Sequence record: PP047754
DNA length: 64,000 bases
Strand: one strand, 5' to 3'
From: Escherichia phage KEP4
Below the pieces are notes generated by a model. The model made no database searches, had not been told where the DNA came from, and was given only the letters and a program-made list of their open reading frames with translations. A program made the position numbers and the translations under genes. Of this stretch, positions 1-6,655 are shown in pieces (positions within the stretch are counted from its first letter, which is position 1; every line of letters starts with the position of its first letter).

Positions 1-269
1 ATGACGCGTTTACACGTGGTCTGTTCAGCAATGCGGTTCGTCCATATATTCGCCAGCTGGCGAATATGGGCGCGATTTACGATGGTAAAGTCAAGTGTGA
101 TGAAGATAACAACACTGCTGATGTCATTGCGGCAAACCAAATGGTTGCTGGTATCTGGTTGAAACCGGAATACAGCATAAATTGGGTGTATCTTGACTTT
201 GCTGCAGTTCGACCAGATATGGAGTTCAGCGAAATCGAATCCGGTGGCGGCATCGTTGCTGCTTCATAA
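1..269 (+). CDS. tail sheath protein (gp18-like), C-terminal fragment; 5' end upstream of window
   Basis: Open frame runs from the window edge to TAA 267-269; sits immediately upstream of gp19/gp20/gp21/gp22/gp23 in T4 order; followed by a terminator hairpin. Confidence 0.5.
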   Translation, partial: DAFTRGLFSNAVRPYIRQLANMGAIYDGKVKCDEDNNTADVIAANQMVAGIWLKPEYSINWVYLDFAAVRPDMEFSEIESGGGIVAAS

Positions 270-277
270 AATGACCA

Positions 278-298
278 ACCCCGCTTCGGCGGGGTTTT
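278..298 (+). terminator. rho-independent terminator after sheath gene
   Basis: Hairpin accccgc-ttcg-gcggggt followed by TTTT; same core hairpin recurs after gp23 at 6634-6655. Confidence 0.6.
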
Positions 299-326
299 CC
301 TTTGTCTTATTGATTTGAGTTATTGA

Positions 327-785
327 ATGATATACGCATACAAAATTGAAACGATAACTAATGGAAAGGTCTACATCGGTGTGACCAATCACCCACAACG
401 AAGATATGATCAGCATTTTGCGAATGCTTTTCATCATGGAGTCCAAAGTGAATTGTATGATGCCATGCGTAAGTATGGAACATCTGGATTTACTTTCGTT
501 GTAATTGCTCAGACCGATGAAGTCCATAAATGGGAATTAGAGAAGCAACTCATCGCTCAATATAATTCTTATGAGATGGGTTACAACATGAATAAAGGCG
601 GTAATGATGGAAGTCATATGCTGGGTAAAACTGCAGCAAAATTGACATCTACAGGTGAACACATTGGTCTTGTTTCTCTCATAGATCCCCGTTGGGAATT
701 GTGTGAAATCGAACCCGTTTTAAGCAATGTTGACCACGGATTTGATTTTTCTTCCATGAAGATTAAAAGATTGACGACTAATTAG
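327..785 (+). CDS. GIY-YIG family endonuclease (Seg-like homing endonuclease candidate), 152 aa
   Basis: N-terminus IYAYKIETITNGKVYIGVTNHPQRRYDQHF matches the GIY...YIG...R...H motif; inserted between gp18 and gp19, which are adjacent in T4. Confidence 0.6.
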   Translation: MIYAYKIETITNGKVYIGVTNHPQRRYDQHFANAFHHGVQSELYDAMRKYGTSGFTFVVIAQTDEVHKWELEKQLIAQYNSYEMGYNMNKGGNDGSHMLGKTAAKLTSTGEHIGLVSLIDPRWELCEIEPVLSNVDHGFDFSSMKIKRLTTN

Positions 786-815
786 AATTGTGTACTCTTA
801 TTTGGAGATATAAAA

Positions 816-1349
816 ATGGCGACAGTCAATGAGTTTCGCGCAGCCATGTCACGAGGGGGCGGCGTACAACGCCAACACCGCTGGCGTGTGACTGTAAACT
901 TTCCTTCTTTTGTTGCTGGTTCCGACACAATTCGTGACGTGTCCTTGCTGGCTGTAACCACCAACACCCCAACAGGTCAGCTGGGCGAAATTCTGGTGCC
1001 CTGGGGTGGTCGTGAACTTCCGTTCCCAGGGGATCGTCGTTTCGAAGCGCTTCCTGTGACGTTCATTAACGTGGTGAACAACGCTCCATACAATGCTTTT
1101 GAAGTGTGGCAGCAATTCATCAACGGTAGTGAAAACAACCGCGCCAGCGCGAATCCAGATGATTATTTCCGTGATATCATCATGGAACTTCTGGACGCGA
1201 ATGACAACGTGACTAAGACATGGACTTTGCAGGGTGGCTGGCCTCAAAACCTCGGCCAATTGGAACTCGATATGTCGGCAATGGACTCTTACACACAGTT
1301 CACTGTCGACTTGCGTTATTTCCAAGCCGTTTCTGACAAGTCATTGTAA
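816..1349 (+). CDS. tail tube protein gp19
   Basis: 177 aa; C-terminal TWTLQGGWPQNLGQLELDMS pattern resembles T4 gp19; position between sheath and portal. Confidence 0.75.
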   Translation: MATVNEFRAAMSRGGGVQRQHRWRVTVNFPSFVAGSDTIRDVSLLAVTTNTPTGQLGEILVPWGGRELPFPGDRRFEALPVTFINVVNNAPYNAFEVWQQFINGSENNRASANPDDYFRDIIMELLDANDNVTKTWTLQGGWPQNLGQLELDMSAMDSYTQFTVDLRYFQAVSDKSL

Positions 1350-3099: not shown

Positions 3100-3140
3100 A
3101 GTTCAACTAAATATAGAAAATTAATTCGGAGATCAAAATC

Positions 3141-3311
3141 ATGAGCGCAATTGATATCGTTCGTGCAGTAATTGACGGTGACACTGAAACTGCTGTTGCA
3201 GAATGCAACATGGAACTTGATGCACGTAGTCAAGAACTATTAAACCAAGGCACCGCATATGTTCTGGATTCTATCGCAGCTGATATGAATTCAAACAACA
3301 ACGGCCAGTAA
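3141..3311 (+). CDS. small prohead core protein candidate (gp67 position), 56 aa
   Basis: Short ORF (below the ORF-track cutoff) with ATG at 3141; sits where T4 gene 67 lies between portal and gp68/gp21. Confidence 0.3.
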   Translation: MSAIDIVRAVIDGDTETAVAECNMELDARSQELLNQGTAYVLDSIAADMNSNNNGQ

Positions 3312-4313: not shown

Positions 4314-4359
4314 ATTTCAGCTCACTAAATACTGAAAAATCGTTCAGAAGGAAACTATC

Positions 4360-6613: not shown

Positions 6614-6633
6614 TCGACAGGTTTTGATAACAA

Positions 6634-6655
6634 ACCCCGCTTCGGCGGGGTTTTT
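6634..6655 (+). terminator. rho-independent terminator after gp23
   Basis: ccccgc-ttcg-gcgggg hairpin followed by TTTTT; same hairpin core as at 278-298. Confidence 0.65.

What the first reader, a model, noticed from the sequence alone, without database searches (positions are those of the whole stretch)
327..785. GIY-YIG endonuclease gene inserted between sheath and tube genes, flanked by duplicated terminator hairpin
gp18 and gp19 are adjacent in T4; here a 152-aa GIY-YIG ORF sits between them. The terminator hairpin after gp18 (278-298) has the same ccccgcttcggcgggg core as the one after gp23 (6634-6655), which could provide homology for recombination. At 152 aa the protein is short for a full Seg-type enzyme, so it may lack a DNA-binding domain or be degenerate.
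Basis: partly seen in the sequence, partly recalled or inferred. Interest (0 to 1): 0.5.

Follow-up and report, generated by a model that had tools for sequence, protein, structure and literature searches.

The report
Short GIY-YIG homing endonuclease gene
A small, intact selfish-nuclease gene sits between the tail sheath and tail tube genes of a Vi01-like Salmonella phage, at a spot where related phages carry nothing or other nuclease genes; it is real, but already annotated in about 200 published phage genomes.

Summary
The window comes from a Kuttervirus (Vi01-like Ackermannviridae, 99.5% identical to Salmonella phage BSP101), not from T4. ORF 327-785 is a genuine 152-aa GIY-YIG nuclease of the I-TevI class, with every catalytic residue present. 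It fills the gap between the sheath-gene terminator and a conserved CTAATTAG motif just upstream of the tube gene.

That gap is empty in Shigella phage Ag3, Erwinia phage Bue1 and Vibrio relatives. In other relatives it holds at least six other nuclease arrangements, so it is a homing-endonuclease hot-spot.

The protein lacks the roughly 95-aa NUMOD3/HTH-like C-terminus of the longer paralogues found at the same site. It keeps one copy of a "DPRW" module that is tandemly repeated in other phage nucleases.

It is not degenerate. dN/dS is about 0.1 across three genera, and its synonymous divergence tracks that of the adjacent tube gene.

The "flanking duplicated hairpin" is wrong. The second copy lies 6.3 kb away, after the capsid gene, and such terminators also occur at empty sites.

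The gene is already annotated (Vi01, PhiSH19 2011, PHROG 5123). Cleavage, target site and mobility remain untested.

The parts
3..269 (+). 3' end of the tail sheath gene (partial CDS, cut by the window start)
   Evidence: PHROG 23 tail sheath E=2.5e-18. Annotated as tail sheath in BSP101 and many relatives.
277..300 (+). Intrinsic-terminator-like hairpin AACCCCGCTTCGGCGGGGTT plus T-run ('type A') after the sheath gene
   Evidence: Terminator scan: 8 pairs, 6 GC, UUCG loop. Dominates the predicted RNA fold of 265-350. Annotated as a terminator at the same place in Klebsiella phages May and Menlow. A different hairpin ('type B', ATGCCCTCTTCGGAGGGCAT) occupies this place in Ag3, KE27, rabagast, phiMAM1, fGh-Ecl02 and YEP3.
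317..319 (+). Weak Shine-Dalgarno-like GAG, 7 nt upstream of the ORF start
   Evidence: Read from the sequence. Taipeivirus orthologues have GGAG here. No promoter-like site lies between the terminator and the ATG.
327..785 (+). 152-aa GIY-YIG nuclease gene (free-standing homing-endonuclease family, short form)
   Evidence: 100% identical proteins are annotated as GIY-YIG or homing endonuclease in many Kuttervirus records. No Rfam family, including group I introns, reaches threshold in 1-1500.
327..605 (+). Catalytic GIY-YIG domain, aa 1-93 (Y5, Y16, G18, R26, H30, E72, N87)
   Evidence: Residue-by-residue alignment to I-TevI 1mk0/1ln0. These residues are invariant in 63 homologues. AF2 pLDDT is above 90. 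Foldseek best hits are the I-TevI catalytic domain: TM 0.82-0.83, rmsd 1.8-2.0 A, prob 1.00.
618..719 (+). Single 'DPRW' module, aa ~98-131 (GKTAAKLTSTGEHIGLVSLIDPRWELCEIE): beta-hairpin, short helix, strand; putative minimal DNA-binding element
   Evidence: Most conserved stretch of the family. AF2 pLDDT ~90. The same module occurs as 4-6 tandem repeats in other phage nucleases. No Pfam or NCBIfam model covers it. DNA binding is inferred, not shown.
720..782 (+). C-terminal tail, aa 132-152, specific to the short form; it replaces the ~95-aa NUMOD3/HTH-like region of the long paralogues
   Evidence: Alignment with long forms. Low model confidence, pLDDT 67 falling to 45. Still under purifying selection.
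778..795 (+). Conserved motif CTAATTAGAATTGTGTAC overlapping the ORF stop codon; putative late-promoter element of the tube gene
   Evidence: Present upstream of the tube gene in nearly all relatives, including the empty junctions of Ag3 and, as CTAAATAGA, Erwinia Bue1. CTAAWTA lies 30-44 nt upstream of late-gene starts throughout the window, 12 of 13 on the + strand. Promoter function is inferred.
816..1349 (+). Tail tube gene (RBS GGAG at 804-807)
   Evidence: PHROG 45 tail tube E=6e-57. Annotations in relatives.
6632..6653 (+). Second copy of the same terminator hairpin, after the major capsid gene; not part of the element, listed because the finding invokes it

Best explanation
ORF 327-785 is a free-standing (Seg-like), I-TevI-class GIY-YIG homing-endonuclease gene in a minimal form. 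It has an intact catalytic domain, one 'DPRW' module that probably contacts DNA, and a short flexible tail.

It occupies a defined slot between the sheath-gene terminator and the late-promoter-like motif of the tube gene. That slot is a hot-spot for nuclease-gene insertion in enterobacterial Ackermannviridae.

Proposed mechanism:
1. The gene is transcribed weakly and late, by read-through of the sheath terminator, and translated from a weak RBS.
2. In mixed infections the enzyme nicks or cuts the DNA of a co-infecting relative that lacks it, near the sheath-tube junction.
3. Recombinational repair from the carrier genome copies the gene and its neighbouring markers into the cut genome. This is homing, also seen as marker exclusion.

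Shown here: family, fold and catalytic residues; the slot anatomy; presence/absence and replacement polymorphism; purifying selection; long-term linkage to the tube gene; mosaic flanks.

Inferred: expression route, DNA binding by the DPRW module, cleavage, target site and present-day mobility.
For: Family and integrity:
- Pfam GIY-YIG above threshold; PHROG 5123 full length.
- Closest NCBIfam model is group I intron endonuclease TIGR01453, matching the catalytic part below that model's cut-off (46.8 bits against 56.05).
- The I-TevI catalytic residues all align and are invariant in 63 homologues.
- The AF2 model (pLDDT 87) superposes on I-TevI at 2.0 A, TM 0.82.

Free-standing: the ORF lies between two separate genes, and no intron or other Rfam family is found.

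Insertion polymorphism at the sheath-tube junction:
- Empty in Ag3, Erwinia Bue1, Vibrio K364 and VPALA.
- Short form only in the window, BSP101, May and IME250.
- Long forward GIY-YIG only in KE27, fGh-Ecl02, YEP3 and Menlow.
- Long plus short in rabagast and phiMAM1.
- Reverse-strand 262-aa GIY-YIG plus short in GOT and PhaxI.
- Reverse GIY-YIG only in SilasIsHot and Se-N.
- Reverse Hef-like 590-aa nuclease in LIMEstone1, maane and PC3.

Position specificity: every short-form homologue found, down to 54% identity and including metagenomic ones, sits sheath | short | tube.

Selection: dN/dS is 0.08-0.12 against Taipeivirus orthologues at dS above 1, in both the catalytic part and the C-terminal part.

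Mosaic flanks: the last 200-400 nt of the sheath gene fall to ~85% identity (pS 0.58) between Kutterviruses with different upstream cassettes. The rest of the gene is 98-100% identical. This matches the co-conversion described for T4 Seg enzymes (PMC2988022).

DNA-binding candidate: the DPRW module is repeated 4-6 times in other phage nucleases with different catalytic domains. Barth et al. 2023 describe comparable beads-on-a-string DNA-binding repeats in phage homing endonuclease genes.
Against: - No cleavage, target site or mobility data exist.
- The protein lacks the NUMOD3/HTH-like C-terminal region that its long paralogues have, and which in I-TevI supplies most of the site specificity (PMC2988022).
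- Its synonymous divergence equals that of the neighbouring tube gene in every pair tested. This looks like old vertical inheritance, not recent spread.
- No carrier-versus-non-carrier diagnostic substitutions were found in the flanking genes, so no target or immunity site can be named.
- Mosaic patches also occur away from the junction, in the portal and the middle of the tube gene. The flank mosaicism is therefore suggestive, not specific.
Confidence: 0.6

Rival explanations
1. Resident, domesticated nuclease. The short form is no longer a mobile element. It is a long-fixed gene kept because it benefits the phage in some way other than copying itself, for example a general DNA-processing role or a role with a partner protein.
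For: - pS of the ORF tracks pS of the tube gene in all pairs: 0.12 vs 0.09, 0.03 vs 0.04, 0.64 vs 0.67.
- dN/dS is about 0.1 over dS above 1.
- Present in at least ~197 of ~282 records that carry a related tube gene.
- Found only at this one locus.
- Lacks the long forms' DNA-binding C-terminus.
- A purely selfish element that is fixed and inherited vertically is expected to decay. Only one frameshifted copy was seen, in SE14.
Against: - Viable Kutterviruses lack it (KE27, SilasIsHot, Se-N, maane), so it is dispensable.
- It lies behind a terminator with a weak RBS, an odd placement for a needed enzyme.
- Its nearest relatives are all homing-endonuclease-type proteins.
- Purifying selection can also be kept up by recurrent homing or exclusion in mixed infections.
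Confidence: 0.22
2. Decaying remnant. The ORF is a truncated leftover of a full-length (~230-245 aa) GIY-YIG homing endonuclease that lost its DNA-binding domain and is on its way to loss.
For: - It aligns over aa 4-132 with the 230-aa Menlow/BRM13314-type protein at 57% identity, then stops.
- One isolate (SE14) has a frameshift in a T-run.
- LIMEstone1 retains a 3' remnant of a long form, so decay does occur at this site.
Against: - dN/dS is 0.08-0.12, including the short-form-specific tail.
- The length of 151-156 aa and the tail motif NVxHxF...IKR are conserved in Kuttervirus, Taipeivirus and Miltonvirus.
- All catalytic residues are invariant.
Confidence: 0.06
3. EndoII-like host-DNA nuclease. 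This would be a small GIY-YIG enzyme that degrades unmodified host DNA while the phage's hypermodified thymidines protect its own genome, as T4 endonuclease II does. The T4 comparison rests on my own knowledge.
For: - Small size without a large DNA-binding domain.
- Ackermannviridae DNA carries 5-NeOmdU in place of ~40% of T (PMC11721090).
Against: - Sequence and fold are closest to I-TevI. No EndoII entry appears among the PDB sequence hits or the top 50 fold hits.
- It sits in the late structural module behind a terminator.
- It is absent from many relatives.
- Its closest paralogues are modular homing endonucleases at the same site.
Confidence: 0.04
4. One reading: the duplicated terminator hairpin (after the sheath gene and after the capsid gene) provided the homology through which the gene was inserted or moved.
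For: The 16-nt core is identical at the two sites and 30 of 33 nt match; chance expectation is 0.
Against: - Only one copy adjoins the ORF, and there is no repeat on the tube side.
- The two copies are direct repeats 6.3 kb apart around essential genes, so recombination between them would be lethal.
- A terminator hairpin sits after the sheath gene at the empty junctions too (Ag3, Bue1), and type A or type B accompanies every kind of cassette.
- Strong GC-stem/UUCG-loop terminators after highly expressed late genes are an ordinary design.
Confidence: 0.03

Closest known systems
I-TevI (phage T4 td-intron GIY-YIG homing endonuclease)
   Same: Same catalytic fold and residues: Y5/Y16/R26/H30/E72/N87 correspond to I-TevI Y6/Y17/R27/H31/E75/N90. 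The model superposes at 1.8-2.0 A, TM 0.82-0.83.
   Different: - I-TevI is intron-encoded and 245 aa. It has a 75-aa linker with a zinc finger and a C-terminal DNA-binding domain (PMC2988022).
- This protein is free-standing and 152 aa. It has no zinc finger or HTH, only a single DPRW module.
- Sequence identity is only ~24%.
T4 Seg proteins (SegA-G), the free-standing GIY-YIG homing endonucleases
   Same: - GIY-YIG catalytic domain.
- Intergenic position between conserved genes.
- Presence/absence polymorphism among relatives.
- Diverged flanks compatible with co-conversion (review PMC2988022).
   Different: - Seg enzymes have demonstrated cleavage and preferential inheritance. Nothing has been tested here.
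- This protein is shorter. T4 Seg proteins are roughly 170-225 aa by my own recollection, not checked here.
- It shows vertical co-divergence with its neighbour gene.
Long GIY-YIG paralogues at the same junction (Menlow gp063 / BRM13314 type, 230 aa; KE27 / rabagast / phiMAM1 type, 225-245 aa)
   Same: - Same slot and same strand.
- 37-57% identity over aa 1-132, including the DPRW module.
- ORF ends run into the same CTAATTAG motif.
   Different: They continue for ~95 aa, with a weak NUMOD3 signal and an HTH-like C-terminal domain ending in TTGWQLIRIV. The short form replaces this with a 20-aa tail.
F-LimVIII / F-LimVII Hef-like endonucleases of Dickeya phage LIMEstone1
   Same: They occupy the same sheath-tube junction in LIMEstone1, maane and PC3. 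They are described as free-standing homing endonucleases in PMC3296691.
   Different: An unrelated protein family (~590 aa, DUF7487 repeats plus a DUF559/MTES_1575-like nuclease), encoded on the opposite strand.
PHROG 5123 / the GenBank annotation 'homing endonuclease with GIY-YIG motif' (Vi01, PhiSH19, BSP101 and others)
   Same: This is that gene. Full-length profile match E=2e-93. 100% identical proteins exist in several records. It is listed as a 152-aa GIY-YIG endonuclease in the PhiSH19 paper (PMC3220722).
   Different: Nothing differs. The annotations carry no functional data.

Membership tests
GIY-YIG nuclease superfamily (Pfam PF01541), I-TevI class | Profile match above the curated threshold | tested here: met
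   PF01541 E=1e-10, 42.2 bits against a cut-off of 22.6, residues 2-87 covering profile 2-78/78.
GIY-YIG nuclease superfamily (Pfam PF01541), I-TevI class | Catalytic constellation: two Tyr of GIY/YIG, Arg, His, Glu, Asn | tested here: met
   Y5, Y16, R26, H30, E72 and N87 align to I-TevI Y6, Y17, R27, H31, E75 and N90. They are invariant in a 63-sequence alignment.
GIY-YIG nuclease superfamily (Pfam PF01541), I-TevI class | GIY-YIG alpha/beta fold | tested here: met
   AF2 model, pLDDT above 90 over aa 1-93. Foldseek hits 1mk0/1ln0 at prob 1.00, TM 0.82-0.83, rmsd 1.8-2.0 A.
Free-standing (Seg-like) homing endonuclease | Gene lies between host genes, not inside an intron or intein | tested here: met
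   The ORF lies between the sheath stop (269) and the tube start (816). No group I intron or other Rfam family reaches threshold in 1-1500.
Free-standing (Seg-like) homing endonuclease | Presence/absence polymorphism at a fixed site among related genomes | tested here: met
   Empty junction in Ag3, Bue1, K364 and VPALA. At least seven occupied states in other relatives.
Free-standing (Seg-like) homing endonuclease | Separate sequence-specific DNA-binding region (NUMOD/HTH/zinc-finger modules) fused to the nuclease domain | tested here: not met
   No Pfam hit outside aa 2-87. The NUMOD3/HTH-like ~95-aa region of the long paralogues is absent. Only a single uncurated DPRW module remains, and its DNA binding is inferred.
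Free-standing (Seg-like) homing endonuclease | Site-specific cleavage of the endonuclease-less allele | not testable with these tools
   Needs purified protein and junction DNA. A search for diagnostic target or immunity substitutions found none.
Free-standing (Seg-like) homing endonuclease | Preferential inheritance with co-conversion of flanking markers | tested here: inconclusive
   The sheath 3' end is mosaic (~85% against 98-100%; pS 0.58 against 0.04-0.09 for the tube gene), and this correlates with the upstream cassette. However, the short ORF itself co-diverges with the tube gene, and mosaic patches also occur elsewhere.
PHROG 5123 (short Ackermannviridae GIY-YIG family) | Full-length profile match | tested here: met
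   E=2.3e-93, residues 1-152 on profile 1-152/152.
T4 endonuclease II (DenA)-like host-DNA nucleases | Closest sequence or fold relationship to EndoII rather than to homing endonucleases | tested here: not met
   PDB sequence search returns only I-TevI. The top fold hits are I-TevI, then UvrC. No EndoII entry appears in the top 50.

The most novel reading that the evidence does not exclude
The short form is not a dying remnant. It may be a long-lived, selected 'minimal' homing endonuclease: a catalytic domain plus a single DPRW module. It has stayed linked to the tail tube gene since before Kuttervirus, Taipeivirus and Miltonvirus split. It may be kept because it excludes competitor genomes in mixed infections, or because it has been co-opted for another role. 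On this reading the DPRW unit would be a previously uncurated, repeatable DNA-binding module used by several nuclease classes (I-TevI-like GIY-YIG, SegE-like GIY-YIG, HNH-like).
Probability: 0.25. Interest if true: 0.45.

Novelty: already known. Interest (0 to 1): 0.27.

Why it matters
As a gene call it adds nothing. The same protein is annotated as a GIY-YIG or homing endonuclease in Vi01-like phages since 2010-2011 and has its own PHROG family.

Two points could interest people who work on homing endonucleases:

- The sheath-tube gap of Ackermannviridae is a compact natural experiment. One ~15-nt slot between a terminator and a promoter-like motif is found empty or filled by at least seven different nuclease arrangements.
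- The short form has persisted under purifying selection without the usual DNA-binding domain. This runs against the standard invade-fix-decay cycle of homing endonucleases. It could be tested directly by crossing readily available Salmonella phages.

There is also a practical point. These phages are used for biocontrol and therapy, and cocktails that mix carriers with non-carriers may exchange tail and head gene segments at this site.

Tried and rejected
- First structure prediction, from the 9-sequence family alignment, gave pLDDT 55.8 and an uninterpretable C-terminus. It was replaced by a 63-sequence alignment, which gave pLDDT 87.3.
- Search for paralogues in the window. An HMM built from all GIY-YIG cassette proteins, and phmmer with the Hef-like proteins, were run against all six-frame ORFs. 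Only the ORF itself was found.
- Search for a target or immunity site. No nucleotide position in the tube CDS or the last 267 nt of the sheath gene separates carriers from non-carriers. Two positions did so in a 7-genome Kuttervirus subset, which is too few genomes to mean anything.
- Literature check of my recollection that CTAAATA is the published late-promoter motif of Vi01-like phages. It was not confirmed. The Ag3 paper searched with T4's TATAAATA. The promoter reading therefore rests only on the positional pattern seen here.
- Literature search for the DPRW motif found nothing relevant.
- RBS sequestration. The predicted fold of 265-350 is dominated by the terminator, with only a weak extra helix (z = -1.8), so there is no convincing regulatory hairpin.
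- Rfam scan of 1-1500 gave only sub-threshold chance hits.
- Hairpin-mediated insertion was rejected; see the rival explanations.
- I considered reading the sheath 3' mosaic as proof of homing. I rejected that, because similar diverged patches occur in the portal and in the middle of the tube gene.
Full report
**What the window is.** Bases 1-1500 are 99.5% identical to Salmonella phage BSP101 and 98-99% identical to dozens of other Vi01-like phages (Ackermannviridae, Cvivirinae, Kuttervirus). The gene order is sheath, ORF, tube, portal, prohead core and protease, scaffold, major capsid. That order is T4-like, but the phage is not T4.

**Check of the observation.**
- The ORF is exactly as described: ATG at 327, TAG ending at 785, 152 aa, + strand.
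- It passes Pfam GIY-YIG (E=1e-10, 42.2 bits against a 22.6 cut-off).
- It matches PHROG 5123 'homing endonuclease with GIY-YIG motif' over its full length (E=2e-93).
- The hairpin core CCCCGCTTCGGCGGGG occurs exactly twice in 64 kb, at 279-294 and 6635-6650, with none expected by chance. Both copies look like intrinsic terminators, and 30 of 33 nt match.
- The ORF is not flanked by them. One copy precedes the ORF. The other follows the major capsid gene 6.3 kb away. No repeat lies on the tube side.

**Is the nuclease intact?**
- Alignment to the I-TevI catalytic domain pairs Y5, Y16, R26, H30, E72 and N87 with I-TevI Y6, Y17, R27, H31, E75 and N90.
- The same positions are invariant in a 63-sequence alignment of homologues.
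- With that alignment AlphaFold2 gives mean pLDDT 87.3, above 90 over aa 1-93.
- Foldseek's best PDB matches are the I-TevI catalytic domain: TM 0.82-0.83, rmsd 1.8-2.0 A, probability 1.00. UvrC follows well behind. No T4 endonuclease II entry appears in the top 50.

**Why it is short.** The same junction in relatives holds longer GIY-YIG proteins of 225-262 aa.
- The 230-aa Menlow/BRM13314 type is 57% identical to the window protein over aa 4-132.
- The KE27, rabagast and phiMAM1 types are 37-43% identical over the same span.
- All of them continue for ~95 aa with a weak NUMOD3 signal and an HTH-like C-terminal domain. The short form stops after a 20-aa tail.

What remains after the catalytic domain is the most conserved stretch of the family: GKxAAKLxSTGEHIGxVSLxDPRWExxEI, aa ~98-131.
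- It is modelled with pLDDT ~90 as a beta-hairpin, a short helix and a strand.
- An exhaustive profile search of 1.84 billion representatives found only two clusters at E<1e-30: the short family and the Menlow type.
- The same search showed that this ~35-40-aa 'DPRW' unit occurs as 4-6 tandem repeats in other phage proteins. Their N-termini are SegE-like GIY-YIG or HNH-like.
- No Pfam or NCBIfam model covers it.
- A module reused in tandem behind different nuclease domains is what one expects of a DNA-binding repeat. Barth et al. 2023 describe the same beads-on-a-string logic for other phage homing endonucleases. DNA binding here is an inference.

**The junction in relatives.** The sheath-tube junction is empty in these phages:
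- Shigella phage Ag3, 78-nt spacer.
- Erwinia phage Bue1, 77 nt.
- Vibrio phages K364 and VPALA, 16 and 9 nt.

The insert is therefore derived. The occupied states are:

| State | Phages |
|---|---|
| Short form only | window, BSP101, Klebsiella May, Serratia IME250 |
| Long forward form only | KE27, fGh-Ecl02, YEP3, Menlow |
| Long forward plus short, in tandem | rabagast, phiMAM1 |
| Reverse-strand 262-aa GIY-YIG plus short | GEC_vB_GOT, PhaxI |
| Reverse GIY-YIG only | SilasIsHot, Se-N |
| Reverse Hef-like ~590-aa nuclease | LIMEstone1 (F-LimVIII), maane, PC3 |

- About 197 phage records encode a protein at least 80% identical to the window ORF. About 282 records encode a tube protein at least 60% identical. 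Both counts include GenBank/RefSeq duplicates.
- Even the most divergent short-form homologues, from metagenomes at 54-60% identity, sit sheath | short | tube.

**Anatomy of the slot.**
- After the sheath stop every genome examined, apart from the two Vibrio phages with their 9- and 16-nt spacers, has a GC-stem/UUCG terminator. 'Type A' has a CCCCGCTTCGGCGGGG core, as in the window. 'Type B' is ATGCCCTCTTCGGAGGGCAT, as in Ag3 and the long-forward carriers. Bue1 has its own variant.
- About 35-40 nt before the tube start nearly every genome has CTAATTAGAATTGTGTAAC. The empty junction of Ag3 has it, and Bue1 has CTAAATAGA.
- The forward cassettes lie between these two landmarks, and their ORF ends run into the motif. 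The short form's stop codon is the TAG of CTAATTAG. The long forms read it as ...QLIRIV.
- In the genomes with a reverse-strand cassette only (SilasIsHot, maane, PC3) the motif is replaced by other sequence containing CTAAATA.
- In the window CTAAWTA is found 12 of 13 times on the + strand. In 10 cases it lies 30-44 nt upstream of an ORF start with an RBS, including tube, portal, the ORF at 3141 and scaffold.
- I read this as the -10-type late promoter of these gp55/gp33-encoding phages. That is my inference. The total motif count is not above chance, and I could not confirm the motif in the literature.
- No promoter-like site lies between the terminator and the ORF's ATG. The Shine-Dalgarno is weak (GAG at 317-319).
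- Expression therefore probably depends on terminator read-through. This fits the general theme of restrained, late expression of T4 homing endonucleases (PMC2988022).

**Evolution.**
- Against Taipeivirus orthologues (dS above 1), dN/dS is 0.08-0.12 in both the catalytic part and the C-terminal part.
- Length and tail motif are kept in three genera.
- Only one frameshifted copy was seen: SE14, a 1-nt loss in a T-run, which may be a sequencing error.
- 'Degenerate' is therefore not supported.
- The ORF's synonymous divergence equals that of the adjacent tube gene in every pair: 0.12 vs 0.09, 0.03 vs 0.04, 0.64 vs 0.67, 0.62 vs 0.67. The short gene and the tube gene have travelled together for a long time.
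- The last 200-400 nt of the sheath gene behave differently. They drop to ~85% identity (pS 0.58, close to the between-genus level) between Kutterviruses that differ in the upstream cassette. The rest of the gene is 98-100% identical.
- That pattern looks like co-conversion accompanying arrival of the upstream cassettes.
- Caution is needed, because diverged patches also occur in the portal and in the middle of the tube gene.

**Mechanism and rivals.**
- Best reading (0.6): a Seg-like free-standing homing endonuclease in a minimal form. It is weakly and late expressed, cuts or nicks non-carrier DNA near the junction in mixed infections, and is copied in by recombinational repair together with neighbouring markers.
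- Main rival (0.22): it is now a resident, selected nuclease that no longer moves.
- The hairpin idea fails for three reasons. The second hairpin is not adjacent to the ORF. A crossover between the two direct repeats would delete five essential genes. Terminator hairpins also stand at empty junctions, although not the window's type A version.

**Known or new.**
- The gene is listed as a 152-aa GIY-YIG endonuclease between tube and sheath in the PhiSH19 paper, with 95% identity to Vi01 and no orthologue in Ag3 (PMC3220722).
- The Hef-like occupant of the same junction is described for LIMEstone1 (PMC3296691).
- The finding is therefore already known as an annotation.
- In the papers I could search I did not find three points: the multi-state hot-spot, the conserved short architecture and the DPRW repeat. 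They are incremental, and none has been tested experimentally.

Noticed in passing
window 778-784, 1385-1391, 3107-3113, 4325-4331, 13000, 43733, 46184, 46780, 61198 (+ strand): CTAAWTA lies 30-44 nt upstream of ORF starts with an RBS, including tube, portal, a small ORF and scaffold. 12 of 13 occurrences are on the + strand. It is probably the late-promoter -10 element of this phage group. The total count is not above chance, so only the position and strand bias carry weight.
   Followed up: partly
L002 (Dickeya phage LIMEstone1), ~2480-2520, just upstream of the tube gene: The DNA still encodes ...RLKTTGWQLIRIV*. This is the 3' end of a long forward GIY-YIG endonuclease, left downstream of the reverse-strand Hef-like F-LimVIII. 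It is a fossil of an earlier occupant of the slot.
   Followed up: partly
L004 / L009 / L016 / L006 sheath genes compared with L017 (BSP101); window 1-269: The last 200-400 nt of the sheath gene are ~85% identical (pS 0.58) between Kutterviruses with different upstream cassettes. The rest of the gene is 98-100% identical. The terminator type (A or B) switches along with it.
   Followed up: yes
proteins P0012, P0016, P0019, P0023, P0028, P0102 (metagenomic): A ~35-40-aa 'DPRW' unit (STGExLGxVsLxDPRWxTGEI) is repeated 4-6 times behind SegE-like GIY-YIG or HNH-like N-termini. No Pfam or NCBIfam model covers it.
   Followed up: partly
L021 (Salmonella phage SE14), equivalent of window ~427-430: A one-base deletion in a TTTT run frameshifts the ORF, and the annotated CDS is cut to 110 aa. 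This is either real decay or a homopolymer sequencing error.
   Followed up: partly
window 352-358 and 716-755 compared with L004 (rabagast): Differences between the window and rabagast alleles of the ORF cluster in two short patches (5 and 10 mismatches). The rest of the gene is nearly identical. This suggests small gene-conversion patches inside the endonuclease gene.
   Followed up: no
window 198-214 and 624-640: A 17-nt inverted repeat (88% complementary) links the sheath 3' end and the DPRW-coding part of the ORF. It is probably chance.
   Followed up: no
GenBank records MN871475 ('Pseudomonas phage Pa-sanjiao') and OR844942 ('Enterococcus phage Efm 3-10'): Both are ~99% identical to Salmonella Kutterviruses across this region. 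The host labels are probably wrong, or the samples were contaminated.
   Followed up: no
L006 (Salmonella phage maane) 756-1118 and L013 (PC3) 253-609: A ~120-aa hypothetical ORF with no Pfam hit accompanies the reverse Hef-like endonuclease in the slot. Its function is unknown.
   Followed up: no
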